Of a DNA stretch of 64,000 bases, positions 1-54,185 are shown in pieces. Below the pieces are notes generated by a model, which worked only from the letters and a program-made list of their open reading frames with translations, was not told the origin of the DNA and did no database searches. The DNA comes from a virus (lineage: Duplodnaviria > Heunggongvirae > Uroviricota > Caudoviricetes): the IMG/VR virus record IMGVR_UViG_2636416131_000001, positions 32,831 to 96,830 of that record; one strand, 5' to 3'. The stretch's first letter is position 1. Each line of letters opens with the position of its first letter. The position numbers were made by a program, and so were the translations under genes.

Positions 1-147
1 GATGAAAAACTCCAGAACGAACTCTATATGACGCAGGACGAAAAGGAACGCCGGGAGCACCAGCCTTGGGTAATGGCGCGTCAACTTTTCAATAAGGTGG
101 CCCGTCAGCACCGTCATTACGGTAATGCCACATCCGCACGTATCTGA
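1..147 (+). CDS. 3' end of an upstream CDS truncated by the window edge (position fits P1 lpa/gene 10 upstream of pacA; not verified)
   Basis: Frame-1 open from position 1 to TGA at 145-147 (...NATSARI*); no start codon visible in window. Confidence 0.3.
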   Translation, partial: DEKLQNELYMTQDEKERREHQPWVMARQLFNKVARQHRHYGNATSARI

Positions 148-232
148 TTGATTGCTTGCCCGTTCCGGGCCTTTTGACATGTGACTTTCGTTACCCTCGC
201 GTCAAAAAGAGTTTTTACGAAAGGAAGCATAA

Positions 233-1426
233 GTGACCTGGGACGATCACAAGAAGAATTTTGCTCGCCTGGCGCGAGATGGTGGTTACACCATCGCACA
301 GTATGCCGCCGAGTTTAATCTTAACCCTAATACTGCACGTCGTTATCTCCGTGCCTTCAAAGAAGACACCAGGACAGCGGACAGCCGCAAGCCAAATAAG
401 CCAGTCAGGAAGCCACTAAAAAGCATGATCATTGATCACTCTAATGATCAACATGCAGGTGATCACATTGCGGCTGAAATAGCGGAAAAACAAAGGGTTA
501 ATGCCGTTGTCAGTGCCGCAGTCGAGAATGCGAAGCGCCAAAATAAGCGCATAAATGATCGTTCAGATGATCATGACGTGATCACCCGCGCCCACCGGAC
601 CTTACGTGATCGCCTGGAACGCGACACCCTGGATGATGATGGTGAACGCTTTGAATTCGAAGCTGGCGATTACCTGATAGATAACGTTGAAGCGCGGAAG
701 GCCGCGCGCGCTATGTTGCGTCGTTCCGGAGCTGATGTTCTGGAAACCACTCTTCTGGAAAAGTCTCTTTCTCATCTCCTTATGCTGGAGAATGCCAGGG
801 ATACGTGTATTCGCTTGGTGCAGGAAATGCGCGATCAGCAAAAAGAAGATGATGAAGGTACTCCGCCTGAATACCGTATCGCGAGCATGCTAAACAGCTG
901 TTCCGCGCAGATAAGCAGCCTGATCAACACCATTTACAGCATCCGGAATAACTATCGAAAAGAAAGCCGGGAGGCGGAAAAGCACGCTTTGTCTATGGGG
1001 CAAGCTGGCATTGTTAAGCTGGCATACGAACGAAAGCGTGAAAATAACTGGTCAGTGCTGGAAGCAGCTGAATTCATCGAGGCGCATGGCGGGAAAGTGC
1101 CGCCCCTGATGCTGGAGCAAATCAAAGCCGATCTGCGTGCTCCTAAGACCAATACCGATGATGAGGAAAGGCAAACTGCCGTCGGTGGCCCTTCTCTTGA
1201 AGATCTGGACAAAGTTGCGCGAGAACGGGCCGCCAACCGCCGCGCCGATGCCGCATTGTGGATTGAGCAACGTAGGGAAGAAATCGCCGATATCGTTGAT
1301 ACAGGCGGTTATGGAGATGTTGATACTGAAGGTGTATCAAACGAACCATGGCTGGAACAAGACCTGGACGAAGACGAGGAGGAAGACGAAGAAGTTACCC
1401 GCAAGCTATACGGGGATGATGATTAA
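233..1426 (+). CDS. pacA: pacase/terminase subunit PacA
   Basis: 397 aa ORF; contains the pac hexamer cluster near its 5' end; stop overlaps pacB start at 1426. Confidence 0.9.
426..583. other. pac: pac packaging site: two clusters of TGATCA/TGATCG hexamers (4 + 3) within pacA
   Basis: TGATCA at 426, 433, 445, 460; TGATCG at 555; TGATCA at 567, 578; Dam GATC-containing hexamers typical of P1 pac. Confidence 0.8.
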
Positions 1427-2940
1427 TGGCCAGAAGTTGCGTAACGGATCCACGTTGGCGCGAGCTGGTGGCGCTATATCGTTATGACTGGATTGCGGCC
1501 GCTGATGTTTTGTTCGGCAAAACACCTACCTGGCAGCAGGATCTGATTATTGAGTCTGTGCAGGAACAGGGTAGCAAGACATCTGTTTCGTCTGGTCACG
1601 GTACCGGGAAATCAGACATGACTTCTATCATGATCATGTTGTTCATAATCATGTATCCCGGTGCCCGCGCCATTATCGTTGCGAACAAAATTCAGCAGGT
1701 AATGACCGGTATATTCAAGTACATCAAGATAAACTGGGCTACTGCCACCAGCCGTTTTCCATGGCTTGCTGATTATTTTGTTCTGACAGAAACCGCTTTC
1801 TATGAGGTTACTGGTAAAGGTGTATGGACTGTAGTACCGAAGGGCTTTCGTCTGGGAAGTGAAGAAGCTCTCGCCGGTGAACACGCAGATCATCTTCTGT
1901 ATATTATCGATGAAGCCTCCGGTGTCAGTGATAGAGCTTTCGGTATCATCACCGGTGCTCTTACCGGACAGGATAACCGCATCTTATTACTGTCACAGCC
2001 TACACGCCCAAGCGGCTATTTCTACGATACTCACCATAAACTGGCCAAGCGTCCTGGTAACCCTGATGGCGTTTATACGGCGATCACGCTTAACAGTGAG
2101 GAATCACCGCTGGTAACGCCAGCATTTATCAAAATGAAGCTGGCGGAGTACGGCGGGCGCGATAACCCTATGTACATGATTAAGGTACGCGGCCTATTCC
2201 CTAAATCACAGGATGGCTTCCTTCTTGGACGTGATGAGGTTGAACGTGCAACGCGGCGGAAAGTCAAGATTGCCAAAGGATGGGGCTGGCTTGCATGTGT
2301 GGACGTTGCTGGTGGTACGGGAAGGGATAAGTCCGTTATCAATATCATGATGGTGTCCGGCCAGAGAAATAAACGCCGTGTAATCAACTATCGAATGCTG
2401 GAATACACAGACGTTACAGAAACGCAGCTTGCCGCCAAAATTTTCGCAGAATGTAATCCTGAGCGATTCCCAAATATTACCATAGCGATAGACGGCGATG
2501 GCCTGGGTAAAGCAACGGCGGATCTGATGTACGAGTATTATGGTATTACCGTACAGCGTATACGCTGGGGTAAAAAGATGCATAGCCGTGAAGATAAGAG
2601 CCTGTACTTTGATAAACGTGCTTATGCCAACGTTCAAGCCGCAGAGGCCGTAAAATCTGGTCGTATGAGACTGGATAAGGGTAATGAAACTATTGAGGAA
2701 GCGTCGAAAATCCCTGTAGGGATTAACTCCGCAGGTCAATGGAAGGTGATGAGTAAGGAGGATATGAAGAAAAAACTCAACCTGCACTCACCAGACCATT
2801 GGGATACATATTGTTTCGCTATGCTGGCGGATTATGTTCCCCAGGACGAAGTGCTTAGCGTCGAAGACGAAGCGCAGGTTGATGAAGCTCTGGCATGGCT
2901 TAATGAATTAATATTTGCTCTAATAAATTGTGTTTTTTAA
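1426..2940 (+). CDS. pacB: pacase/terminase large subunit PacB
   Basis: 504 aa ORF translationally coupled to pacA; synteny pacA-pacB-c1. Confidence 0.88.
2914..2930 (+). promoter_or_regulatory. C1 operator-like site inside the 3' end of pacB
   Basis: TTTGCTCTAATAAATTG, 15/17 match to P1 operator consensus ATTGCTCTAATAAATTT; about 350 bp upstream of the icd-like ORF, the same spacing as the immI operator to icd. Confidence 0.5.
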
Positions 2941-3061
2941 CTGCCGATGTTACATTGAACCTGACCTCTTGCGCCTTGAGGCATTTTCGGTTTATGCTTA
3001 TCAGGCACCTCAGTAAAACGGGTGCCGGGATTGGAACCCCGGATAATGTCAAAGGCGACAC

Positions 3062-3084
3062 AGACGCCAAAAGCGTCTTTTTTT
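3062..3084 (+). terminator. rho-independent terminator after pacB
   Basis: hairpin agacgc-caaaa-gcgtct followed by T7 run. Confidence 0.55.
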
Positions 3085-3114
3085 GTGTCATGCCATCGCA
3101 CGGCCATACGTAGC

Positions 3115-3235
3115 GTTTAGCTCAGAGATCAATGGTAGTGCTGGCTGGGCTGCCGAAAGGCAGGCCGGTTCCCTTTGACGCCGGTAGTTCCAACCCAGTC
3201 AGTGCTACCGCCATTGAGATTGGAACCTCACGCGG
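3115..3235 (+). ncRNA. c4-like antisense RNA region (bounds approximate)
   Basis: Lies between an operator and an icd-like ORF as c4 does in immI; hairpin ctgcc-gaaa-ggcag; ggtagttccaa is complementary to downstream ttggaac...cggtagc in the icd leader. Confidence 0.3.
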
Positions 3236-3269
3236 TAGCTCCTTAACTTAGTCAAAGGAGGCTGCCATT

Positions 3270-3491
3270 ATGGCTACTATCCCTACCCCAACTCATCCTG
3301 AATTTATCTGGCGCTTTTACTCCTGCCAAAAACGTCACTATCACTTCGTTATTGCACCGACAGAAGATGAGGCCCGCTCTCAGCTTCCTGACGCCCCATG
3401 TATTTTCTCTGCCCGTTTTTCCACTGATTCACGCAATTCTCTCAGTTACTGGTGCCTCCCTGTTAACGCTTCTGTTCAGGAGGGGCTATGA
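3270..3491 (+). CDS. Icd-like protein, paralog of the immI Icd at 49825..50046
   Basis: 73 aa; shares EFIWRFYSC.K.HYHFVIA.TEDEARSQLPD.PCIF.ARFST.SRN.LSYW with the second copy; stop overlaps the downstream ant-like start. Confidence 0.7.
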   Translation: MATIPTPTHPEFIWRFYSCQKRHYHFVIAPTEDEARSQLPDAPCIFSARFSTDSRNSLSYWCLPVNASVQEGL

Positions 3492-4600
3492 GAACGTCAT
3501 TAGTCACCCGTGAAGAGATGATCGAGGCAATTGAACAGCACACTGCCTGTATCAGCACCAGGGATATTCCCAGTGTTATAGCCAACTACTTCATGATCAC
3601 TAAACAACTTTACCGGAGAAAGGACAAGAACGCGGTTCACCGTATCCTGCTGTCTGATATTCGCGAATACCTGCTCGAACAGGGTCATCTGAATTACGCA
3701 ACCGTCGCAGCCGAAGCACGCAAGGAGGCACACAGAATGAAAGCAACTAACGTTAAATCAGAAAAAATTCATGCACCTTCAGTTCAGGAATCGGAGCTGG
3801 TGGTTGTTCAGAATCAGTCTGATGAAATTCCCGTTCTGGAATGGCTGGGAGTGCGTGTAGTGACAACTGAGACTCTTGCTAAAGGGTATGGGACCGATGA
3901 AGCGAATATTCGTAAAAATTTGTCTCGCAACCCCGATCGCTTTGAAGAAGGTAAGCATTACTATCTCTTAACTGGTTCAAAATTAAAGGAATTTAAAAGG
4001 CTAGTGACTATTAGTCACTTGGTTAGCAAATATACAAGTCAGGTAATTCTCTGGGCCGAGCGCGGAGCGGCACGCATGTCTAAGATCGTGGACACAAATG
4101 AAGCATGGGCATTCTTTGAAAAACTGGAAGACAGCTACTTCCGGCAAAAAGAACAGCAACCGGTTGCAATCCCCCAAACATTACCAGAAGCCCTACGCCT
4201 GGCTGCCGAACTGGCTGAAAAAAAGCAGCTTCTGGAACAGAAAGCCCACCAGCTAAATCAGCAGCTGGTAGCCGCCGCTCCTAAGGTCGATTTTGCCGAC
4301 CGGGTATCAGTAGCTAAAGGGATCCTGATTGGGAATTTTGCAAAGGTTGTTGGACTTAAGCAAAACGCGCTGTTTGCCTGGTTACGGGAGAACGGCATCC
4401 TGATAGCGTCCGGTGGACGTAAAAATGTGCCGTTCCAGCAGTACATCAACGCGGGGTATTTCACGGTGAAAGAAGTGGTGCTGGATGATGAAGATGGCTA
4501 CCAGATACGGTTGACGCCTCAATTAACGGGTAAAGGCCAGCAGTGGTTGACGCGTAAACTGCTCGATGCTGGCTTGTTAAAACCGGTGGCGGTTGAATAA
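3488..4600 (+). CDS. Ant-like antirepressor paralog with a different central domain
   Basis: 370 aa; N-terminal ~90 aa and C-terminal ~150 aa (IPQTLPEALRLAAELAE...GKGQQWLTRKLLDAGLLKPVA) homologous to Ant1 at 50043..51086 and to the KilA C-terminus; central ~120 aa unrelated to Ant1. Confidence 0.75.
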   Translation: MRTSLVTREEMIEAIEQHTACISTRDIPSVIANYFMITKQLYRRKDKNAVHRILLSDIREYLLEQGHLNYATVAAEARKEAHRMKATNVKSEKIHAPSVQESELVVVQNQSDEIPVLEWLGVRVVTTETLAKGYGTDEANIRKNLSRNPDRFEEGKHYYLLTGSKLKEFKRLVTISHLVSKYTSQVILWAERGAARMSKIVDTNEAWAFFEKLEDSYFRQKEQQPVAIPQTLPEALRLAAELAEKKQLLEQKAHQLNQQLVAAAPKVDFADRVSVAKGILIGNFAKVVGLKQNALFAWLRENGILIASGGRKNVPFQQYINAGYFTVKEVVLDDEDGYQIRLTPQLTGKGQQWLTRKLLDAGLLKPVAVE

Positions 4601-4607
4601 TGGAAGA

Positions 4608-4629
4608 ATGCCCGGTTGATGCCGGGCAT
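4608..4629. terminator. bidirectional terminator hairpin between convergent ant-like gene and c1
   Basis: atgcccgg-ttgat-gccgggcat perfect 8 bp stem, flanked by A/T runs. Confidence 0.55.
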
Positions 4630-4632
4630 AAT

Positions 4633-5484
4633 TTATTGCGCGCTTTCGGGGTTGTCGTTTACTGGCTGCCCCTTCTTGGTTTTACGGCTGCGCGTAACTG
4701 ATGCGGCTGACTTAACCTTTTTCTCTTCGCGAGTGATGGCAATTTGTTTTTTTACATTTTCAATATCTGCCAGGCGATATATTTTTGCTTGCGGCCAGCG
4801 GTCGCAGATGATCGGTTCTATGGAGTCATAAAGGCTAAATTTTGCTTTTTCGAATTCACCGTTGATGATAATTCCATCACGGAGAGTTTCATCGCAGATA
4901 AACACGCCACACAGTGGCACATGGTAACTAACTGATTTGCCATCATTGTAGTTAGGGCTACTGGAAATGTAGTGGACGCGCAGCATTGTTTCGCTAAAGC
5001 CGTGTACGCGCATACGGAATTTTTCATCCTCCGGGTACTGCTTCATTAGCTCTTTTGTTGCTTCCAGGTTCTCTATGTATTTCGCACTGTGCTCATTGAT
5101 CCCTGCGCTTTTCTGGATGCGAATGTCCTTATCAATCAGATGAATAATGCGACCGGCGGTCATGTTGACGCTGTTCACAGCTTCTGTCTGATAAGTCGTA
5201 ACCTTACGCACACCGCGAAGGATGTTAGGCACTGGATATAAAATAGTCTTTGGGATATTGAGGTCTGGGTACTGTTCCAGTTCCCGCGCCATTAAAGTCC
5301 ATTTATCAATTTCAGCCTGAATGCTGTCAGTTTCTTTGAACGGTAGAACGACAACCGGGCGTACAGGACGACCGTCGCTGGCTGTATCAACGTGTTGGGC
5401 GCGTGCAACAGCTTTTTTTAGAAAGAGATCCCTGAAGCTGACGAACTCCTGGTACAGTTGTTCGCCGTAGACATAATTTATCAT
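4633..5484 (-). CDS. c1: C1 repressor of lytic functions
   Basis: 283 aa ORF beginning MINYVYGEQLYQEF; matches recalled P1 C1 in sequence and length; adjacent coi and operators. Confidence 0.95.
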   Translation of the reverse strand: MINYVYGEQLYQEFVSFRDLFLKKAVARAQHVDTASDGRPVRPVVVLPFKETDSIQAEIDKWTLMARELEQYPDLNIPKTILYPVPNILRGVRKVTTYQTEAVNSVNMTAGRIIHLIDKDIRIQKSAGINEHSAKYIENLEATKELMKQYPEDEKFRMRVHGFSETMLRVHYISSSPNYNDGKSVSYHVPLCGVFICDETLRDGIIINGEFEKAKFSLYDSIEPIICDRWPQAKIYRLADIENVKKQIAITREEKKVKSAASVTRSRKTKKGQPVNDNPESAQ

Positions 5485-5594
5485 TGATCCTCCTCCAGAA
5501 TTGACATGGCCAATAACGCCCGGCTGAGAAAACCGGTCATTACTGACCTATATTATAGAGGGATCAAACAAAAATAATAGATTTATTAGTGCAT

Positions 5595-5804
5595 TTATTG
5601 TGAGTCTAACTGGTTAGTTGCCATGAGATATTCGATTGTGTCAGTGAGGTCATCCAGGTCGTCTTGGGTGATGCGGTACTCCTGATTGGATATCTTTGAG
5701 TAGTGTTCAGCAATGGCGCGGGCAGCGTCGGTTTCGGCAGGGTCTACAGATAAAGCGTTAGAGCAATGTCTAACGTCGTCGATGGTTGGTTGAATGAAAG
5801 CCAT
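5595..5804 (-). CDS. coi: Coi, C1 inactivator
   Basis: 69 aa acidic ORF immediately upstream of c1, same strand. Confidence 0.8.
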   Translation of the reverse strand: MAFIQPTIDDVRHCSNALSVDPAETDAARAIAEHYSKISNQEYRITQDDLDDLTDTIEYLMATNQLDSQ

Positions 5805-6042
5805 AATTATGCCTCACTGTATTGACAACACAGAGCCTGAAGCTCTGACCTACTGTTTCACCCATGATCCATGCTGGGGTAATCTAACAACATTGCGCTG
5901 TGTGTAAGATGAGCAATGCATAGCTGTAATGCCGTTGTATAAGGTTTCCCTGTTTGCTCATTTCCTTCTGAGCCGCTCTACAACGCTGAAGACACATTAA
6001 ATAGTGAATCCAAAGTCGTATTACGTAACGGCGGCAAAACTA

Positions 6043-6059
6043 TAATTTATTAGAGCAAT
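6043..6059 (-). promoter_or_regulatory. C1 operator (Op99-type) upstream of coi/c1
   Basis: reverse complement reads ATTGCTCTAATAAATTA, 16/17 to consensus. Confidence 0.6.
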
Positions 6060-6125
6060 TGTCAAACAACTATGAAAAACAATCCAGTTTTTGGCTGGTG
6101 GAGTGGGATTTTTCTCTCAAAATTT

Positions 6126-6142
6126 ATTGCTCTAATAATTCT
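6126..6142 (+). promoter_or_regulatory. C1 operator-like site between immC and loxP
   Basis: ATTGCTCTAATAATTCT, 15/17 with perfect ATTGCTCTAAT core. Confidence 0.55.
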
Positions 6143-6185
6143 TGATTTTTATGCGCAGCTGGACGTAAACTCCTCTTCGGACCTA

Positions 6186-6219
6186 ATAACTTCGTATAGC
6201 ATACATTATACGAAGTTAT
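6186..6219. other. loxP: loxP site-specific recombination site
   Basis: exact 34 bp ATAACTTCGTATA-GCATACAT-TATACGAAGTTAT. Confidence 0.98.
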
Positions 6220-6408
6220 CTTAAGGGTTATTGAACATGATCAATTTACCTGTAAATCCATACAGTTCAATACCTTATCAGGTCAAATAGTGATCACTTG
6301 ATCATTTGATCAAGGTTGCGCTACGTAAAATCTGTGAAATGTTGGCAGTGTTTGTGCTCCAGATTTCGCGTAGCGCACTTAGCACCACCAATCAATCAGA
6401 GGTGAAAA

Positions 6409-6630
6409 ATGGGATATTCAGCTGCTAAAGTGTCCACTCATCTTGAGCTTGAGAAAAACCGTGGTTACTGGCGGGCAAAAGGGTTTGATCGTGATAGTTG
6501 TCAACTGTCATTATCGCGCGGTGAAGAGAAAATAGAACGCACGCGCGGTCGCTGGCGTTTCTATGACGAGAACCATAAACAGGTAAAGGCAGAGCCGATC
6601 CTGTACACTTTACTTAAAACCATTATCTGA
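6409..6630 (+). CDS. hypothetical 73 aa ORF between loxP and cre
   Basis: strong SD GAGGTGA 6 nt upstream of ATG; basic product; stop 8 nt before the cre ATG. Confidence 0.35.
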   Translation: MGYSAAKVSTHLELEKNRGYWRAKGFDRDSCQLSLSRGEEKIERTRGRWRFYDENHKQVKAEPILYTLLKTII

Positions 6631-6637
6631 GTGTTAA

Positions 6638-7669
6638 ATGTCCAATTTACTGACCGTACACCAAAATTTGCCTGCATTACCGGTCGATGCAACGAGTGAT
6701 GAGGTTCGCAAGAACCTGATGGACATGTTCAGGGATCGCCAGGCGTTTTCTGAGCATACCTGGAAAATGCTTCTGTCCGTTTGCCGGTCGTGGGCGGCAT
6801 GGTGCAAGTTGAATAACCGGAAATGGTTTCCCGCAGAACCTGAAGATGTTCGCGATTATCTTCTATATCTTCAGGCGCGCGGTCTGGCAGTAAAAACTAT
6901 CCAGCAACATTTGGGCCAGCTAAATATGCTTCATCGTCGGTCCGGGCTGCCACGACCAAGTGACAGCAATGCTGTTTCACTGGTCATGCGACGGATCCGA
7001 AAAGAAAACGTTGATGCCGGTGAGCGTGCAAAACAGGCATTGGCGTTCGAACGCACTGATTTCGACCAGGTTCGTTCACTCATGGAAAATAGCGATCGCT
7101 GCCAGGATATACGTAATCTGGCATTTCTTGGGATTGCTTATAATACCCTGCTACGTATAGCAGAAATTGCCAGGATCAGGGTTAAAGATATCTCACGTAC
7201 TGACGGTGGGAGAATGTTAATCCATATTGGCAGAACGAAAACGCTGGTTAGCGCCGCAGGTGTAGAGAAGGCACTTAGCCTGGGGGTAACTAAACTGGTC
7301 GAGCGATGGATTTCTGTCTCTGGTGTAGCTGATGATCCTAATAACTACCTGTTTTGCCGGGTCAGAAAAAATGGTGTTGCCGCGCCATCTGCCACCAGCC
7401 AGCTATCAACTCGCGCCCTGGAAGGGATTTTTGAAGCAACTCATCGATTGATTTACGGCGCTAAGGATGACTCTGGTCAGAGATACCTGGCCTGGTCTGG
7501 ACACAGTGCCCGTGTCGGAGCCGCGCGAGATATGGCCCGCGCTGGAGTTTCAATACCGGAGATCATGCAAGCTGGTGGCTGGACCAATGTAAATATTGTC
7601 ATGAACTATATCCGTAACCTGGATAGTGAAACAGGGGCAATGGTGCGCCTGCTGGAAGATGGCGATTAG
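6638..7669 (+). CDS. cre: Cre tyrosine recombinase
   Basis: 343 aa, MSNLLTVHQNLPALPVDATSDEVRKNLMDMFRDRQAF...; matches recalled Cre; loxP 419 bp upstream. Confidence 0.98.
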   Translation: MSNLLTVHQNLPALPVDATSDEVRKNLMDMFRDRQAFSEHTWKMLLSVCRSWAAWCKLNNRKWFPAEPEDVRDYLLYLQARGLAVKTIQQHLGQLNMLHRRSGLPRPSDSNAVSLVMRRIRKENVDAGERAKQALAFERTDFDQVRSLMENSDRCQDIRNLAFLGIAYNTLLRIAEIARIRVKDISRTDGGRMLIHIGRTKTLVSAAGVEKALSLGVTKLVERWISVSGVADDPNNYLFCRVRKNGVAAPSATSQLSTRALEGIFEATHRLIYGAKDDSGQRYLAWSGHSARVGAARDMARAGVSIPEIMQAGGWTNVNIVMNYIRNLDSETGAMVRLLEDGD

Positions 7670-7686
7670 CCATTAACGCGTAAATG

Positions 7687-7703
7687 ATTGCTCTAATTCT
7701 TTG
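7687..7703 (+). promoter_or_regulatory. C1 operator-like site downstream of cre
   Basis: ATTGCTCTAATTCTTTG, perfect 11 bp core; 17 nt upstream of the next ATG. Confidence 0.5.
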
Positions 7704-7719
7704 ATATTTATGGTGGCAT

Positions 7720-8031
7720 ATGAGAAAGGATTTCAACATCGACGGAAAATATGTAGTGCTGTCTGTAAGCACTAATATTCTGTCACCATCTGTCATTGTC
7801 ACCGTAAAGTTGAGCGATAGGATGCCTGATATCGACTCGATATCTGTTGCGTTCCCCGTTAAAAGCATGCGGAGTGCTGAACATTTTGTGATGAATGCAA
7901 CGGAGGAGGAAGCGCGGCGCGGGCTTACTAGAGTGATGGGGGAATTTGGCGAACTCCTGGGTAAGGTAAACAATGCCCTTTCAATCAGTTCAGCAAGGTC
8001 CAAAGCGTTAACAGCTTCCATGATGAAATAA
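7720..8031 (+). CDS. hypothetical protein in the cra position of the P1 gene order
   Basis: 103 aa ORF directly behind an operator-like site; no recognisable motifs. Confidence 0.45.
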   Translation: MRKDFNIDGKYVVLSVSTNILSPSVIVTVKLSDRMPDIDSISVAFPVKSMRSAEHFVMNATEEEARRGLTRVMGEFGELLGKVNNALSISSARSKALTASMMK

Positions 8032-49510: not shown

Positions 49511-49689
49511 GTATTTTTAAGTCACGAATGCTATCTTTTCGCATCATATTGACCTTTTAATCGTTCAGGCTTATAGTTCCGCCGTCGTAGCAAATTCTGC
49601 GACCAGGTTTGACAGCCTGAATGATTGTGCGGACAACCGCAGATTTCCGATATTGCGGTATTTTTGTGTCCGTTAAACCGCGTTACGCC

Positions 49690-49790
49690 CAAATTATGGT
49701 GGGGCGTGATGGGGAGGCTTCGGCCTGCTGGTTTCACAATCGCCAGTCTGTCAACCCTGTCACGTCCTGCCACCTGTTTGACAGCGGGTA
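49690..49790 (+). ncRNA. c4: c4 antisense repressor RNA region (bounds approximate)
   Basis: between operator and icd; UUCG-loop hairpin aggc-ttcg-gcct; segments complementary to the icd leader. Confidence 0.4.
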
Positions 49791-51250: not shown

Positions 51251-52051
51251 ATGCAACAAACATTCAATGCGGATATGAATATATCAAACCTTCATCAAAA
51301 TGTCGATCCTTCAACCACTCTGCCCGTTATTTGTGGTGTTGAAATTACGACCGACCGCGCTGGCCGTTACAACCTTAATGCTCTACACAGAGCGAGCGGA
51401 CTCGGTGCCCATAAAGCGCCAGCTCAATGGCTAAGAACGCTGTCAGCCAAACAGCTCATCGAAGAGCTTGAAAAAGAAACTATGCAGAATTGCATAGTTT
51501 CGTTCGAAGGCCGTGGCGGCGGCACTTTTGCCCATGAATTGCTCGCAGTGGAGTACGCAGGCTGGATTTCTCCCGCGTTTCGGCTGAAGGTAAACCAGAC
51601 ATTTATCGACTATCGAGCCGGAAGATTACAACCTGCTATTCCGAAGAGCCTCCCAGAAGCTCTCCGTTTGGCTGCTGACCTGGCAGAGCAAAAGCAACGG
51701 CTGGAGCAAAAAATGCTGATGGATGCACCTAAAGTCGAATTCGCCGAACGCGTTGCTACCGCCAGCGGGGTTCTAATCGGCAACTATGCCAAAGTGCTCG
51801 GCCTGGGCCAAAACTATCTCTTCACCTGGTTGCGTGATAACGGAATTCTGATCGCAACCGGTGAACGCAGGAACGTCCCCAAACAAGAATACATATCCCG
51901 TGGGTATTTCACCCTTAAAGAAACCGTGATCGATACAAGCAATGGAAGCAGGATTTCTTTCACGACTCGTATAACCGGCAAAGGTCAGCAGTGGCTGATG
52001 AAGCGATTGCTTGATGCTGGTGTGCTGGTACCTGTCGCGGCAACGCGCTAA
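51251..52051 (+). CDS. kilA: KilA
   Basis: 266 aa; N-terminal KilA-N-like region, C-terminus homologous to Ant. Confidence 0.85.
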   Translation: MQQTFNADMNISNLHQNVDPSTTLPVICGVEITTDRAGRYNLNALHRASGLGAHKAPAQWLRTLSAKQLIEELEKETMQNCIVSFEGRGGGTFAHELLAVEYAGWISPAFRLKVNQTFIDYRAGRLQPAIPKSLPEALRLAADLAEQKQRLEQKMLMDAPKVEFAERVATASGVLIGNYAKVLGLGQNYLFTWLRDNGILIATGERRNVPKQEYISRGYFTLKETVIDTSNGSRISFTTRITGKGQQWLMKRLLDAGVLVPVAATR

Positions 52052-52080: not shown

Positions 52081-52926
52081 ATGCTGGCTAAAGTCACTTT
52101 CCTGAGCTGTATAACGATGAGCGATTTTACTTTTTCTGGCTATGAATTGGCCTGCTTTGTAACACACTCCGGTCTATCCCGTAGCGCCGGGCATATCCTG
52201 TCGCAATGTGCAAATCTCGCGGCAACAACCAGTGAATACTTCATTCACAAGCCTCACCGCCTGATCGCGGCAGAAACTGGTTATAGCCAATCAACCGTCG
52301 TTCGTGCATTCCGTGAAGCTGTAAACAAAGGAATTCTGTCTGTAGAGATTGTTATCGGCGATCACCGTGAACGTCGCGCTAACCTGTACCGGTTTACACC
52401 ATCCTTTTTGGCCTTCGCACAACAAGCCAAAAATGCGCTGATTGAAAGCAAATTAAAGATCTCTTCAGCGGCAACCAAGGTTAAAGCTGTTCTCGCTAAG
52501 ACATTGGCTTTATTTAATTTTTTATCCACACCCCCATGTCAAAATGATACCCCCTCCCCCTGTCAGGATGACGTGGCAATAAAGAATAAGAAGTCACAAG
52601 TTAAAAAAACAAAAAGATCAGTTTCCGGCGGTGCCGGAACGACCAGACTCAAAAAATTGACTTCATGGATCGCTGAGGCAAAAGCAAAGGCTGACAATCT
52701 GCGGTTATCCAAAAAACGCACTCAAAAACATGAGTTCAAGCAGAAGGTAGAGGCGGCAGCGCGGAAATATGCTTACCTGAAGAACAAGCGTTCTCCTGAT
52801 ATTGGCGGGGTATCAAACTTCGATAATCTGCCGCATTGCATGACGGTAAACGAAGCTCTTAATGCGGTTTTAGCCAAAAATAAAGATAACGAACAATGGG
52901 GTATACCGGCAGGATTCAGAGGGTGA
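52081..52926 (+). CDS. repL: RepL lytic replication initiator
   Basis: 281 aa following kilA under the same operator. Confidence 0.85.
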   Translation: MLAKVTFLSCITMSDFTFSGYELACFVTHSGLSRSAGHILSQCANLAATTSEYFIHKPHRLIAAETGYSQSTVVRAFREAVNKGILSVEIVIGDHRERRANLYRFTPSFLAFAQQAKNALIESKLKISSAATKVKAVLAKTLALFNFLSTPPCQNDTPSPCQDDVAIKNKKSQVKKTKRSVSGGAGTTRLKKLTSWIAEAKAKADNLRLSKKRTQKHEFKQKVEAAARKYAYLKNKRSPDIGGVSNFDNLPHCMTVNEALNAVLAKNKDNEQWGIPAGFRG

Positions 52927-52929
52927 TAG

Positions 52930-52946
52930 ATTGCTCTAATCTGGAG
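52930..52946 (+). promoter_or_regulatory. weak C1 operator-like site (core only)
   Basis: ATTGCTCTAATCTGGAG, perfect 11 bp core, degenerate 3' part. Confidence 0.35.
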
Positions 52947-52976
52947 TCACCTGGCGTTTTCAGTTTGAGGTCGGAG

Positions 52977-53222
52977 ATGCAATCTGATTTTTTACAGTTA
53001 GCGATCGCTTTTGCAGGATATGTTTGTATTGGCTTCTGTGTATACATGTTCAGCCGAAAAATGCTTGTCGATATCGACCGCAAAGAACAAGCAGAGGAGA
53101 TCTTAGTATGGATTTTCTTTGGCGCGGTCTGGCCATTAGGGATCATGTTTGCTGCAACATTTCTTCTGATGTGGATATTCACCCTTCCAGGTGATTTCTA
53201 TAGAAAAAAAGCCAGACATTGA
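52977..53222 (+). CDS. small two-TM membrane protein
   Basis: 81 aa from ATG 52977 (GAGGTCGGAG upstream); two hydrophobic helices. Confidence 0.45.
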   Translation: MQSDFLQLAIAFAGYVCIGFCVYMFSRKMLVDIDRKEQAEEILVWIFFGAVWPLGIMFAATFLLMWIFTLPGDFYRKKARH

Positions 53223-53345
53223 TACAATCGTTGCGGGTGCTTGAGGCTATCTGCTTCAGGCATTACCCGAAAAGCAGATAGAAGAAAGCCCCAGATAACA
53301 TTACGCGTCCTGCAAGACGCTTAACATTAATCTGAGGCCATATCT

Positions 53346-53552
53346 ATGCTTAGCATACGTAGATTAGCCTCTTACCGACCAAAAGGTCAAGGAGAAGCAG
53401 GCTATGAAGCAGCAAAAAGCGATGTTAATCGCTCTGATCGTCATCTGTTTAACCGTCATTGTGACGGCACTGGTAACGAGGAAAGACCTCTGCGAGGTAC
53501 GAATCCGAACCGGCCAGACGGAGGTCACTGTCTTCACAGCCTACGAATCTGA
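53346..53552 (+). CDS. mok-like overlapping reading frame of the hok locus
   Basis: 68 aa ORF starting upstream of and overlapping hok in another frame. Confidence 0.35.
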   Translation: MLSIRRLASYRPKGQGEAGYEAAKSDVNRSDRHLFNRHCDGTGNEERPLRGTNPNRPDGGHCLHSLRI

Positions 53553-53559
53553 AAGGTAA
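53404..53559 (+). CDS. hok: Hok/Gef-family type I toxin
   Basis: 51 aa MKQQKAMLIALIVICLTVIVTALVTRKDLCEVRIRTGQTEVTVFTAYESER; AAGGAG SD 9 nt upstream; below the ORF-track length cutoff. Confidence 0.8.
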   Translation: MKQQKAMLIALIVICLTVIVTALVTRKDLCEVRIRTGQTEVTVFTAYESER

Positions 53560-53638
53560 GAGACCTGGCGGGGAGAGATCCTCGCCACTCTTCGTGTGTC
53601 AGGTATCCTCAATGCACCCTTTCCTCTCCAAATAAAAA

Positions 53639-53654
53639 AGCTCCCGCAGGAGCT
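53639..53654. terminator. terminator hairpin after the hok locus
   Basis: agctcc-cgc-aggagct flanked by A6 and T-rich sequence. Confidence 0.5.
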
Positions 53655-53675
53655 TTAAAATACAAGGGATGACTC

Positions 53676-54185
53676 TTAATCCCACTCAATCCAGTTGTAG
53701 ACGATACGAAGTGACGGGCGCACAGCGGCAGTCACATCTTCGGTACTAAAGTCGATTGCATCACTGTAGATTTTGCAGTCCAACATTTCAATTGTTGTAG
53801 CAGCTTTTGTCACAGCGTTAACCCCGGAAGATTTGGATTCAGGGGTAGCAGCCATCGTGATATCAACGTAGTCCTTCGCCGCAATGCGATCCTTGATGAA
53901 CTGAAGAATATCGCCTTCGATAGTCTCCACGCACTGGACCTGGATTTCCCCAGAGTTTCGAATTGGTCCGTGCTGGTTGAACTTCACACCATTCGGACCA
54001 TAGTCCTCCACATCCTCGCGGGTCATTTCAGGAATTTGCGACGTGCGAACCAGTACGCTGATATCTTCATGGCCTGCAAAAGTGAGCTGGAATTCAGAAG
54101 ATACCAGTCGTTCGCCTTTGGCCGCGTTGGCAGTATAGCGGCCCTTAATAAATTTACGGTTTCCCTTAGTGTTATTGTGCCCCAT
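53676..54185 (-). CDS. virion structural protein (tail tube-like candidate)
   Basis: 169 aa; last gene of a minus-strand structural operon. Confidence 0.4.
   Translation of the reverse strand: MGHNNTKGNRKFIKGRYTANAAKGERLVSSEFQLTFAGHEDISVLVRTSQIPEMTREDVEDYGPNGVKFNQHGPIRNSGEIQVQCVETIEGDILQFIKDRIAAKDYVDITMAATPESKSSGVNAVTKAATTIEMLDCKIYSDAIDFSTEDVTAAVRPSLRIVYNWIEWD

What the first reader, a model, noticed from the sequence alone, without database searches (positions are those of the whole stretch)
53280..53660. Unannotated hok/mok-type type I toxin locus between repL and the structural genes
A 51 aa ORF (53404..53559) absent from the ORF track encodes MKQQKAMLIALIVICLTVIVTALVTRKDLCEVRIRTGQTEVTVFTAYESER, a close match to recalled Hok/Gef/RelF-family membrane toxins. 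It has an AAGGAG SD, an overlapping upstream frame (53346..53552) in the mok position, a 5' inverted repeat (53252..53288) and a 3' terminator hairpin. A sok-like antisense RNA would be expected on the minus strand around 53290..53350. This gives the plasmid prophage a post-segregational killing module.
Basis: partly seen in the sequence, partly recalled or inferred. Interest (0 to 1): 0.5.

Follow-up and report, generated by a model that had tools for sequence, protein, structure and literature searches.

The report
Ordinary hok/sok toxin-antitoxin locus in P1-like prophage
The short gene is a complete hok/mok/sok toxin–antisense-RNA cassette sitting in a variable slot of a P1-like plasmid prophage, but it is a well-known kind of module that public databases already label hokD in hundreds of identical plasmids.

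Summary
The ORF at 53404-53559 (+) encodes the quoted 51-aa peptide, and it matches Pfam Hok/Gef (E 2.4e-22). The leader at 53235-53409 matches Rfam RF01794 "sok" (114.9 bits; gathering score 59).

Every named part of the R1 hok/sok model is present and intact:
- a hok promoter, and a 5' tac element that pairs with a 3' fbi element;
- ucb, and a mok SD and ORF (68 aa);
- a hok SD, and the 3' stem-loop;
- a convergent Sok gene on the minus strand (about 53355 to 53280).

The window is a P1-like phage-plasmid. The cassette, together with a 108-aa membrane ORF, replaces P1's rlfA-rlfB-pmgF between repL and bplB.

The same arrangement occurs in 262 PLSDB plasmids and in 235 of 5,426 complete E. 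coli genomes. NCBI's annotation calls the toxin gene hokD there.

The closest studied relative is hokW-sokW of Stx phage Sp5 (Hok 92% identical). [quoted passage not shown]

The post-segregational-killing role is inferred, not shown, and a role in helping lysis is a live rival. Novelty and interest are low.

The parts
53201..53228 (+). hok (mok-hok mRNA) promoter: TAGAAA, 16 nt spacer, TG-n-TACAAT (extended -10). The predicted transcription start is G53235.
   Evidence: It is the only sigma-70-like site found in 52700-53240. The -10 lies 7 nt before the first base of the Rfam model match. Homology to other hok loci begins at the -10, at 53223.
53235..53622 (+). Predicted full-length mok-hok mRNA, about 388 nt. 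The 3' end is inferred by analogy, and transcription could instead run on to the hairpin at 53637-53656.
   Evidence: The MFE is -154.7 kcal/mol, z = -7.6 against shuffles. Hok-family homology spans 53223-53619 in 36 or more independent loci.
53235..53246 (+). tac (translational activator) element at the mRNA 5' end, GGGUGCUUGAGG.
   Evidence: It pairs with 53607-53619 in the full-length MFE structure. It pairs with ucb in the fold of the first 80 nt and in the Rfam consensus structure. It is identical between the consensus sequences of the P1-type and lambdoid-type groups, and all tac/ucb pairs are kept in 65 of 65 variants.
53247..53281 (+). 5' stem-loop inside the tac stem.
   Evidence: There are compensatory changes across relatives at 53249/53279 (A-T to G-C) and at 53255/53273 (C-G to T-A, specific to the P1-type group).
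53286..53292 (+). ucb (anti-SD) box AAGCCCC. It pairs either with tac or with the mok SD.
   Evidence: In the full-length and the 357-nt folds it pairs with the mok SD region 53334-53338. In the nascent fold it pairs with tac. Both sets of pairs are kept in 65 of 65 variants.
53346..53552 (+). mok leader ORF (68 aa), with its SD GAGG at 53334-53337. It reads through the hok SD and start codon in the +1 frame.
   Evidence: The 58-nt offset to hok matches R1 numbering in PMC9841398 (mok ATG 116-118, hok ATG 174-176). Lambdoid relatives have a 57-nt, in-frame offset.
53404..53559 (+). hok toxin gene (51 aa, one N-terminal transmembrane helix), with its SD AAGGAG at 53389-53394.
   Evidence: Pfam PF01848 E 2.4e-22 over the full model. 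It is 92% identical to HokW and 42% identical to R1-type Hok. RefSeq names it hokD.
53280..53355 (-). Predicted Sok antisense RNA, about 70-76 nt: a 5' tail of about 16 nt, a long hairpin (53339-53287), then UUUCUUCU.
   Evidence: Fold energy is -30.6 kcal/mol, z = -4.7. It aligns with the annotated sokW of 933W. It lies inside the Rfam RF01794 match.
53361..53390 (-). Predicted Sok promoter: -35 TTGACC (53390-53385), 18-nt spacer, -10 TAATCT (53366-53361).
   Evidence: It aligns with the sokW -10, TAACCT. I inferred from a primer sequence (YO-421) that this hexamer is what the promoter-less construct of PMC8621323 mutated, a construct that lost antitoxin activity. It did not pass the generic promoter scan, because the -10 matches only 3 of 6 positions.
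53568..53587 (+). 3' stem-loop (GGCGGGGA-GAGA-UCCUCGCC). It corresponds to the terminal hairpin that protects the truncated, active hok mRNA.
   Evidence: It forms in both MFE structures. It aligns with the R1-type hairpin GGCGGGC..GCCCGCC. The stem is kept through sequence changes among relatives (alignment, judged by eye).
53607..53619 (+). fbi (fold-back inhibition) element, CCUCAAUGCACCC.
   Evidence: It forms 12 pairs with tac, with a duplex energy of -20.6 kcal/mol. Only 5 of 5000 shuffles of the 3' UTR reach that energy. Family homology ends exactly here.
53637..53656 (.). Hairpin of the P1 backbone, 17 nt after fbi. It scores as the bplB terminator on the minus strand and may also stop hok transcription.
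   Evidence: P1 homology resumes at 53634.
52896..53222 (+). A 108-aa ORF (81 aa in RefSeq) of unknown function, with hydrophobic stretches that look like transmembrane helices. It travels with the hok cassette in this P1 sublineage. Its 3' end carries the hok -35.
   Evidence: It has no Pfam or NCBIfam family. Relatives were found only in P1-like elements. RefSeq annotates it as hypothetical.

Best explanation
This is an intact hok/mok/sok type I toxin-antitoxin cassette of the HokD/HokW subgroup. It sits in the variable repL-bplB slot of a P1-like plasmid prophage.

**Proposed mechanism**
1. A constitutive promoter (53201-53228) makes a stable mok-hok mRNA that starts at about 53235.
2. In the full-length mRNA the 5' tac element pairs with the 3' fbi element. 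The mok SD is held by the ucb box, so nothing is translated and Sok cannot bind.
3. Slow 3' trimming back to the hairpin at 53568-53587 removes fbi. The tac element then pairs with ucb, and the mok start region is freed.
4. While the element is present, the short-lived Sok RNA (minus strand, about 53355 to 53280) pairs with that region and blocks mok translation, and therefore hok translation. In R1 the duplex is cut by RNase III.
5. If Sok synthesis stops, Sok decays. This could happen through loss of the plasmid prophage, or perhaps through transcription changes on induction.
6. mok and then hok are translated, and the 51-aa Hok peptide inserts into the inner membrane and kills the cell.

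**Most likely role** (my subjective estimates): stabilising the low-copy plasmid prophage by post-segregational killing, about 0.55. Helping lysis or phage release on induction is about 0.25. Exclusion of other phages, or no role that matters, makes up the rest.

**Shown versus inferred**: the sequence and fold anatomy, the homology and the distribution are shown here. RNA half-lives, processing, toxicity and the biological role are inferred.
For: **Toxin and leader RNA**
- The toxin matches Pfam PF01848 over the full model, E 2.4e-22.
- It is 92% identical to HokW, which is experimentally toxic and is neutralised by sokW (PMC8621323).
- The leader matches Rfam RF01794 at 114.9 bits over the whole model. 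The same model hits the R1-type locus and the 933W locus.

**Regulatory anatomy**
- tac pairs with fbi in the MFE structure (12 bp). Only 5 of 5000 shuffles reach that duplex energy, and the full-length fold has z = -7.6.
- The mok SD pairs with ucb in the full-length fold. tac pairs with ucb in the nascent fold, and these pairs are kept in 65 of 65 variants.
- Compensatory changes occur in the 5' hairpin.
- The Sok candidate folds as a tail plus a terminator hairpin, z = -4.7.
- The hok promoter lies 7 nt upstream of the model start.
- The offsets from the predicted start (mok ATG at +112, hok ATG at +170) compare with +116 and +174 in R1 (PMC9841398).

**Signs that it is kept intact**
- None of the 11 distinct P1-type variants has a stop or frameshift in hok or mok.
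- The arrangement is at least 99% conserved in 262 plasmids and in 235 complete E. coli genomes.

**Context**: the element is a P1-like (IncY) plasmid prophage.
Against: - There is no expression, toxicity or plasmid-loss data for this locus.
- The Sok promoter has a weak -10 (TAATCT) and an 18-nt spacer, and it failed the generic promoter scan.
- The MFE fold of the 357-nt truncated form did not give the published open tac/ucb conformation.
- No plus-strand intrinsic terminator is predicted after fbi.
- P1-like elements already have phd/doc for addiction; it is present in the 99%-identical MH422554. It lies outside this window.
- Sister phages 673R5 and RCS47 have lost the hok coding sequence, so the module is dispensable.
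- The closest tested homologue was linked to phage release, not to retention.
Confidence: 0.85

Rival explanations
1. The cassette mainly serves the lytic cycle. On induction Sok disappears, and Hok damages the inner membrane before holin and endolysin act. This advances or boosts phage release, as shown for hokW-sokW in Stx phage Sp5. Plasmid retention would be left to phd/doc and the par system.
For: - HokW is 92% identical to this Hok, and the loci are 86.5% identical in DNA.
- In Sp5, sokW RNA vanishes after mitomycin C, HokW appears in a RecA-dependent way, and deleting the locus halves phage release (PMC8621323).
- Here the cassette lies directly downstream of, and in the same direction as, the kilA-repL lytic operon, which the P1 record describes as controlled by the C1 repressor. 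Only a weak terminator-like site lies between them (53179-53194). Read-through on induction would run head-on into the Sok promoter.
- The left half of a C1 operator (ATTGCTCTAAT) survives at 52929-52939.
Against: - How Sok is lost in Sp5 is unknown.
- P1 induction and host shut-off differ from those of lambdoid phages.
- No data exist for any P1-like element.
- Hok/sok on low-copy plasmids is the textbook post-segregational-killing system.
- The two roles are not mutually exclusive.
Confidence: 0.25
2. The cassette acts as an abortive-infection or exclusion device against other phages. Host transcription shut-off by an infecting phage depletes Sok, and Hok kills the cell before that phage completes its cycle.
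For: The R1 hok/sok system on a high-copy plasmid reduced T4 plating efficiency and plaque size, as cited in the discussion of PMC8621323. Variable slots in prophages often carry defence cargo; that is general knowledge and was not tested here.
Against: The reported effect was modest and depended on high copy number. Nothing in the window links the locus to a defence island. I did not run a PADLOC search.
Confidence: 0.07
3. The locus is an inactive relic, like most chromosomal hok loci of E. coli K-12, and has no present function.
For: Some sister P1-like phages carry only a truncated remnant. The Sok promoter has a 1-nt insertion relative to lambdoid relatives. The status of the K-12 loci is my recollection of the literature and was not checked here.
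Against: - All parts are intact and in register.
- tac, fbi, the Sok hairpin and the hok SD are 92-100% conserved between groups.
- None of the 11 distinct P1-type variants has a disabling mutation.
- The 1-nt insertion improves the -35 to TTGACC and recreates the R1-type mok frame.
Confidence: 0.05

Closest known systems
hokW-sokW of Stx2 phage Sp5 / 933W (lambdoid prophages), and the chromosomal hokD-type loci of E. coli
   Same: - The Hok proteins are 92% identical, and DNA is 86.5% identical from the hok -10 to the end of fbi.
- The order of parts is the same.
- tac, fbi, the Sok hairpin and the hok SD are 92-100% identical between the two groups.
- RefSeq gives the window's gene the hokD name.
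   Different: - The carrier is a P1-like plasmid prophage, not an integrated lambdoid prophage.
- A 1-nt insertion (T at 53387) shifts mok to 58 nt upstream and out of frame with hok. It gives a TTGACC -35 with an 18-nt spacer, where the lambdoid type has TTGCCT with 17 nt.
- The Sok 5' tail / mok start region is the most diverged of the named functional elements, 68% against 88% overall. This may limit cross-talk with chromosomal copies.
- The C-terminus differs (TVFTAYESER versus AVFVDYESEK).
hok/sok (parB) of plasmid R1, the type system. It was compared through an IncFII plasmid locus whose Hok is 100% identical to the R1 Hok sequence I supplied from memory.
   Same: - All named parts are present in the same order and at similar distances. 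These are tac, ucb, the mok SD and ATG, a Sok promoter inside mok, the hok SD, the 3' hairpin and fbi.
- The out-of-frame 58-nt mok-to-hok offset matches R1.
- Both match Rfam RF01794.
- Both sit on low-copy plasmids.
   Different: - The Hok proteins are only 42% identical.
- The leader carries a 19-nt longer Sok hairpin and a shorter 5' hairpin loop.
- The tac and fbi sequences differ on both sides (GGCGC and GCGCC in R1, GGGUGC and GCACCC here), and complementarity is preserved.
phd/doc, the classical addiction module of P1
   Same: It has the same proposed biological role, killing or arresting cells that lose the plasmid prophage. It is present in the 99%-identical relative MH422554.
   Different: It is unrelated in sequence and mechanism: a type II protein antitoxin with a Fic-family kinase toxin (from the literature, not tested here). 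It lies elsewhere on the genome, outside this window.

Membership tests
hok/sok type I toxin-antitoxin family | A toxin of about 50 aa with an N-terminal transmembrane helix, matching the Hok/Gef profile | tested here: met
   Pfam PF01848 scores 78.7 bits against a cut-off of 22, covering model positions 1-42 of 42. The NCBIfam Hok models also hit, but below their curated cut-offs (49.5 bits against 73).
hok/sok type I toxin-antitoxin family | A mok leader ORF with its own SD, starting upstream of hok and translated across the hok SD and start codon | tested here: met
   The ORF at 53346-53552 has GAGG 8 nt upstream and passes the hok ATG at 53404. An ATG at this position is found in 65 of 66 variants.
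hok/sok type I toxin-antitoxin family | A conserved hok mRNA leader structure (tac stem, Sok target hairpin), that is, a match to Rfam RF01794 | tested here: met
   114.9 bits against a gathering score of 59, full-length match. Positive controls: 933W at 113.5 bits and the R1-type locus at 87.2 bits.
hok/sok type I toxin-antitoxin family | Pairing between the mRNA 5' end (tac) and 3' end (fbi) | tested here: met
   12 bp form in the MFE structure. The duplex energy is -20.6 kcal/mol, reached by 5 of 5000 shuffles. Pairs are kept in at least 65 of 66 variants. This is computational evidence only.
hok/sok type I toxin-antitoxin family | A cis-encoded Sok antisense RNA with its own promoter inside mok and an intrinsic terminator | tested here: inconclusive
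   The hairpin and U-tract are well supported (z = -4.7). The position is homologous to the annotated sokW and to its -10, which I inferred from a primer to be the hexamer mutated in PMC8621323. The promoter hexamers do not pass the generic scan, and no transcript data exist.
hok/sok type I toxin-antitoxin family | Hok is toxic, and Sok neutralises it | not testable with these tools
   This is shown only for the homologue HokW/sokW, 92% identical (PMC8621323).
Post-segregational killing (addiction) modules | A stable toxin mRNA, an unstable antitoxin RNA, and killing of plasmid-free segregants | not testable with these tools
   This is inferred from the R1 model (PMC9841398) and from the plasmid lifestyle of the carrier (IncY).
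P1-like phage-plasmids (Punavirus) | Collinear kilA-repL and bplB-pmgG-21-22 blocks with high identity to P1 | tested here: met
   The flanks are 97-99% identical to P1 and P7. The interval 52941-53633 is not P1 sequence.

The most novel reading that the evidence does not exclude
In this P1 sublineage the hok/sok cassette may be wired into the lysis-lysogeny switch. It lies downstream of, and in the same direction as, the C1-repressed kilA-repL-orf108 transcription unit, with no strong terminator in between. Derepression on induction would then send transcription head-on into the Sok promoter, silence Sok and release Hok. One cassette would act both as an addiction module during lysogeny and as a timed helper of lysis during induction.
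Probability: 0.12. Interest if true: 0.45.

Novelty: already known. Interest (0 to 1): 0.15.

Why it matters
Very little is new. The locus is a textbook type I toxin-antitoxin system, and its toxin gene is already named in RefSeq copies of the same plasmid family.

The practical points are modest:
- Canonical P1 lacks this cassette, so a large share of natural P1-like plasmids carry a second killing module besides phd/doc. In PLSDB, 262 of the 707 plasmid records that match any part of the 901-bp query hold the full arrangement. These plasmids often carry resistance genes, and the extra module could make them harder to cure.
- Annotation covers only the toxin gene. mok and Sok are not marked, one phage record calls the hok gene 'MokW', and the Rfam 'sok' model hits the sense strand.
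- The P1-like system would be a convenient place to test whether a phage-borne hok/sok serves retention or lysis.

Tried and rejected
- **NCBIfam.** The Hok models hit but stayed below their curated cut-offs. The RefSeq name 'HokD' therefore does not follow from those HMMs, and I rely on Pfam and Rfam instead.
- **Promoter scan.** The generic scan did not find the Sok promoter. I placed it by homology to sokW instead.
- **Truncated-mRNA fold.** The MFE fold of the 357-nt form gave the 'metastable' 5' hairpin rather than the published open tac/ucb form. Only the 80-nt nascent fold and the Rfam consensus show tac/ucb.
- **Counting error.** My first tac/ucb pair count used a register one base off and is void.
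- **Limited covariation.** Covariation for tac/fbi cannot be shown within the close family, because both elements are almost invariant. Only the comparison with the R1-type locus shows changes on both sides.
- **Literature.** Four searches for hok in P1-like or IncY phage-plasmids found no paper that discusses it. A fifth search was rejected because one term was too short. The hits concerned other plasmids.
- **Missing supplement.** The supplement of PMC9841398 that holds the R1 cassette sequence is not held. I used an IncFII plasmid locus instead, whose leader differs slightly from R1.
- **phd/doc.** It was looked for and lies outside the window.
- **Rejected idea.** The hairpin at 53637-53656 is not part of the hok family unit. 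It is P1 backbone sequence.

Full report
**1. Observation**

The sequence at 53000-53900 and the mechanical ORF list confirm the 51-aa ORF at 53404-53559 (+) with exactly the quoted translation. AAGGAG lies at 53389-53394. The overlapping 68-aa ATG frame runs from 53346 to 53552.

The peptide matches Pfam PF01848 (Hok/Gef) over the whole model, E 2.4e-22, 78.7 bits against a cut-off of 22. The region 53235-53409 matches Rfam RF01794 ('sok') end to end, 114.9 bits against a gathering score of 59, E 6.3e-27. It is the only such hit in the 64-kb window. This is not a chance ORF.

**2. Context**

The window is a P1-like phage-plasmid. KilA (51251-52051; KilA-N and ANT domains) and RepL (52081-52926) lie upstream. 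BplB (53676-54185, minus strand), PmgG, gp21 and gp22 lie downstream. The flanks are 97-99% identical to P1, P7 and relatives.

Homology to canonical P1 stops at 52940 and resumes at 53634. P1 has rlfA, rlfB and pmgF in that interval. P7, RCS47, SJ46 and 673R5 each carry something different, so repL-bplB is a variable slot.

In this window the slot holds a 108-aa ORF with hydrophobic, membrane-like stretches (52896-53222) and the hok cassette. The ORF has no family assignment, and its relatives were found only in P1-like elements.

**3. Limits of the cassette**

I compared the window with 89 fetched loci: lambdoid prophages, P1-like elements and an R1-type plasmid. The shared hok unit runs from 53223 or 53232 to 53619 in most of them. 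That span goes from the hok -10 hexamer to the last base of fbi.

**4. Anatomy**

- **hok promoter.** TAGAAA, 16 nt, TG-n-TACAAT at 53201-53228. It is the only promoter-like site in 52700-53240. It places the transcription start at about G53235, the first base of the Rfam match.
- **tac and fbi.** In the MFE structure of 53235-53622, bases 53235-53246 (tac) pair with 53607-53619 (fbi), 12 bp with one bulge. The duplex energy is -20.6 kcal/mol and is reached by 5 of 5000 shuffles of the 3' UTR. The whole fold has z = -7.6.
- **ucb and the mok SD.** In the same fold the mok SD (GAGG, 53334-53337) pairs with 53288-53292 (ucb). In a fold of the first 80 nt, tac instead pairs with 53286-53292, which reproduces the Rfam consensus tac stem. 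Both sets of pairs are kept in all 65 close variants.
- **5' hairpin.** The inner hairpin (53247-53281) shows compensatory changes at two pairs. One of them (C-G to T-A at 53255/53273) is specific to the P1-type group.
- **Distances.** Counted from the predicted start, the mok ATG is at +112 and the hok ATG at +170. In R1 they are at +116 and +174 (PMC9841398).
- **3' stem-loop.** The stem-loop at 53568-53587 aligns with the R1-type terminal hairpin of the truncated, active mRNA.
- **Sok.** On the minus strand, TTGACC (53390-53385), an 18-nt spacer and TAATCT (53366-53361) align with the sokW promoter. From the sequence of primer YO-421 I inferred that the sokW -10, TAACCT, is the hexamer mutated in the promoter-less construct that lost antitoxin activity (PMC8621323). 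The predicted RNA, from about 53355 to about 53280, has a 5' tail of about 16 nt, a 53-nt hairpin and UUUCUUCU. Its fold energy is -30.6 kcal/mol, z = -4.7. It coincides with the annotated sokW of 933W when that is mapped onto the window.

**5.

- The inverted repeat is 53236-53256 / 53272-53292, a few bases from the stated coordinates.
- The hairpin at 53637-53656 is P1 backbone sequence and scores as a minus-strand terminator for bplB. It lies 17 nt after fbi. The R1-type locus has a hairpin about 8 nt after its fbi, so this one may still end hok transcription. That is inference.
- The Rfam 'sok' model hits the hok-sense strand here, in 933W and in the R1-type locus. The real Sok gene is on the opposite strand.

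**6. Variation inside the family**

Among 66 distinct variants, 53 have mok 57 nt upstream of hok and in frame with it. All 11 P1-type variants have a 58-nt, out-of-frame offset as in R1. This is due to one extra T (53387), which also turns the Sok -35 into TTGACC and lengthens the spacer to 18 nt. No P1-type variant has a stop or frameshift in hok or mok.

Between the P1-type and lambdoid-type consensus sequences, identity differs by segment:

| Segment | Identity |
|---|---|
| tac | 100% |
| hok SD to ATG | 100% |
| Sok hairpin | 98% |
| fbi | 92% |
| Sok 5' tail / mok start region (53340-53358) | 68% |
| Whole unit | 88% |

The low identity at the Sok recognition segment is what one would expect if recognition specificity has drifted away from the chromosomal copies. 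That is inference.

**7. How common and how well known**

The 901-bp segment 52850-53750 is at least 80% covered in 262 PLSDB plasmids, mostly non-mobilizable Escherichia plasmids; one that I opened is typed IncY. It is also at least 80% covered in 235 of 5,426 complete E. coli genomes. There the toxin gene is annotated 'hokD: type I toxin-antitoxin system toxin HokD'.

Six records in the phage collection carry the segment. One labels the hok ORF 'MokW', and another leaves it unannotated. mok and Sok are not annotated in the P1-like records I opened.

I found no paper in the held library that discusses hok/sok in P1-like elements.

**8. Function**

The mechanism is taken from R1 (PMC9841398). 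A stable mRNA is locked by end-pairing. Slow 3' processing activates it. An unstable Sok RNA blocks mok translation, and therefore hok translation. Hok is made when Sok is no longer supplied.

For the closest relative, hokW-sokW of Sp5 (Hok 92% identical), several things are shown experimentally. These are toxicity, neutralisation by sokW, partial dependence on RNase III and Hfq, loss of sokW on induction, and a two-fold contribution to phage release (PMC8621323).

For a low-copy plasmid prophage, post-segregational killing is the most economical role. It is not shown here. P1-like elements already have phd/doc, which is present in the 99%-identical MH422554 and lies outside this window. Sister phages 673R5 and RCS47 have lost the hok coding sequence.

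The lysis-helper role is therefore a serious rival. The cassette's position directly downstream of the C1-controlled kilA-repL operon, with only a weak terminator-like site between them, makes a link to induction conceivable.

**9. Verdict**

The feature is a standard, intact member of a thoroughly characterised family, already annotated in public records of the same plasmid lineage. Interest is low.

Noticed in passing
L005 (phage vB_EcoM-673R5) 951-2316 and L006 (phage RCS47) 3244-3503; corresponds to window 53107-53369: Two sister P1-like phages keep the hok promoter, tac, ucb, the Sok body, the mok start and the Sok -10. Homology breaks right after the -10, at window 53366-53369. The Sok -35, the hok gene and fbi are replaced by an unrelated minus-strand gene (171 or 198 aa, no Pfam family). 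This looks like a recombination scar showing that the cassette is older than these variants.
   Followed up: partly
window 53235-53409 (+); L002 1504-1678; L009 282-453: The Rfam RF01794 'sok' model matches the hok-mRNA sense strand over about 175 nt in all three loci. That includes 933W, where sokW is annotated on the opposite strand. Automated annotation from this model would place 'sok' on the wrong strand and make it too long.
   Followed up: yes
window 53385-53390 and 53346-53404: A single extra T in all P1-type copies makes mok out of frame with hok (58-nt offset, as in R1). Most lambdoid copies have an in-frame 57-nt offset. The same T turns the Sok -35 into TTGACC with an 18-nt spacer.
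   Followed up: yes
window 52896-53222 (+): A 108-aa ORF (RefSeq calls an 81-aa version) with hydrophobic, membrane-like stretches and no family assignment. Its relatives were found only in P1-like elements, including distant ones (44-49% identity) in SJ46 and E. albertii plasmids. It overlaps the end of repL by 31 nt, it has no promoter-like site of its own, and its 3' end carries the hok -35.
   Followed up: partly
window 52929-52939: The left half of P1's C1 operator Op55/Orlf (ATTGCTCTAAT) is retained just after the repL stop, although the rlf genes it precedes in P1 are gone. Homology to P1 ends inside the operator.
   Followed up: partly
window 3005-3215 and 49571-49777 (+): There are two separate C4 antisense RNA matches (77.1 and 68.4 bits). 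One is preceded by an isrK match and the other by the a1/b1 target element. The window therefore seems to hold two c4-type immunity RNA loci.
   Followed up: no
window 1-8011 versus MH422554 (L090 34356-40668): The pacA-side start of the window is only 88.6% identical to the otherwise 99%-identical relative. Window 2909-4618 has no match there, so there is a second variable region near the immunity and c1 end.
   Followed up: no
window 53232-53242 and 53638-53648: There is an 11-nt, 91% complementarity between the hok 5' end and the left arm of the P1-backbone hairpin. It could be chance, or it could act as a second fold-back partner if transcripts extend that far.
   Followed up: no
PLSDB hits H104-H111 (e.g. 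L007, NZ_AP027589.1): In several larger or rearranged P1-derived plasmids the near-identical hok segment ends at window 53581, before fbi, and other DNA follows. In L007 there is about 1.4 kb between hok and bplB, and an IS1 nearby. Those copies would lack the fold-back lock.
   Followed up: no
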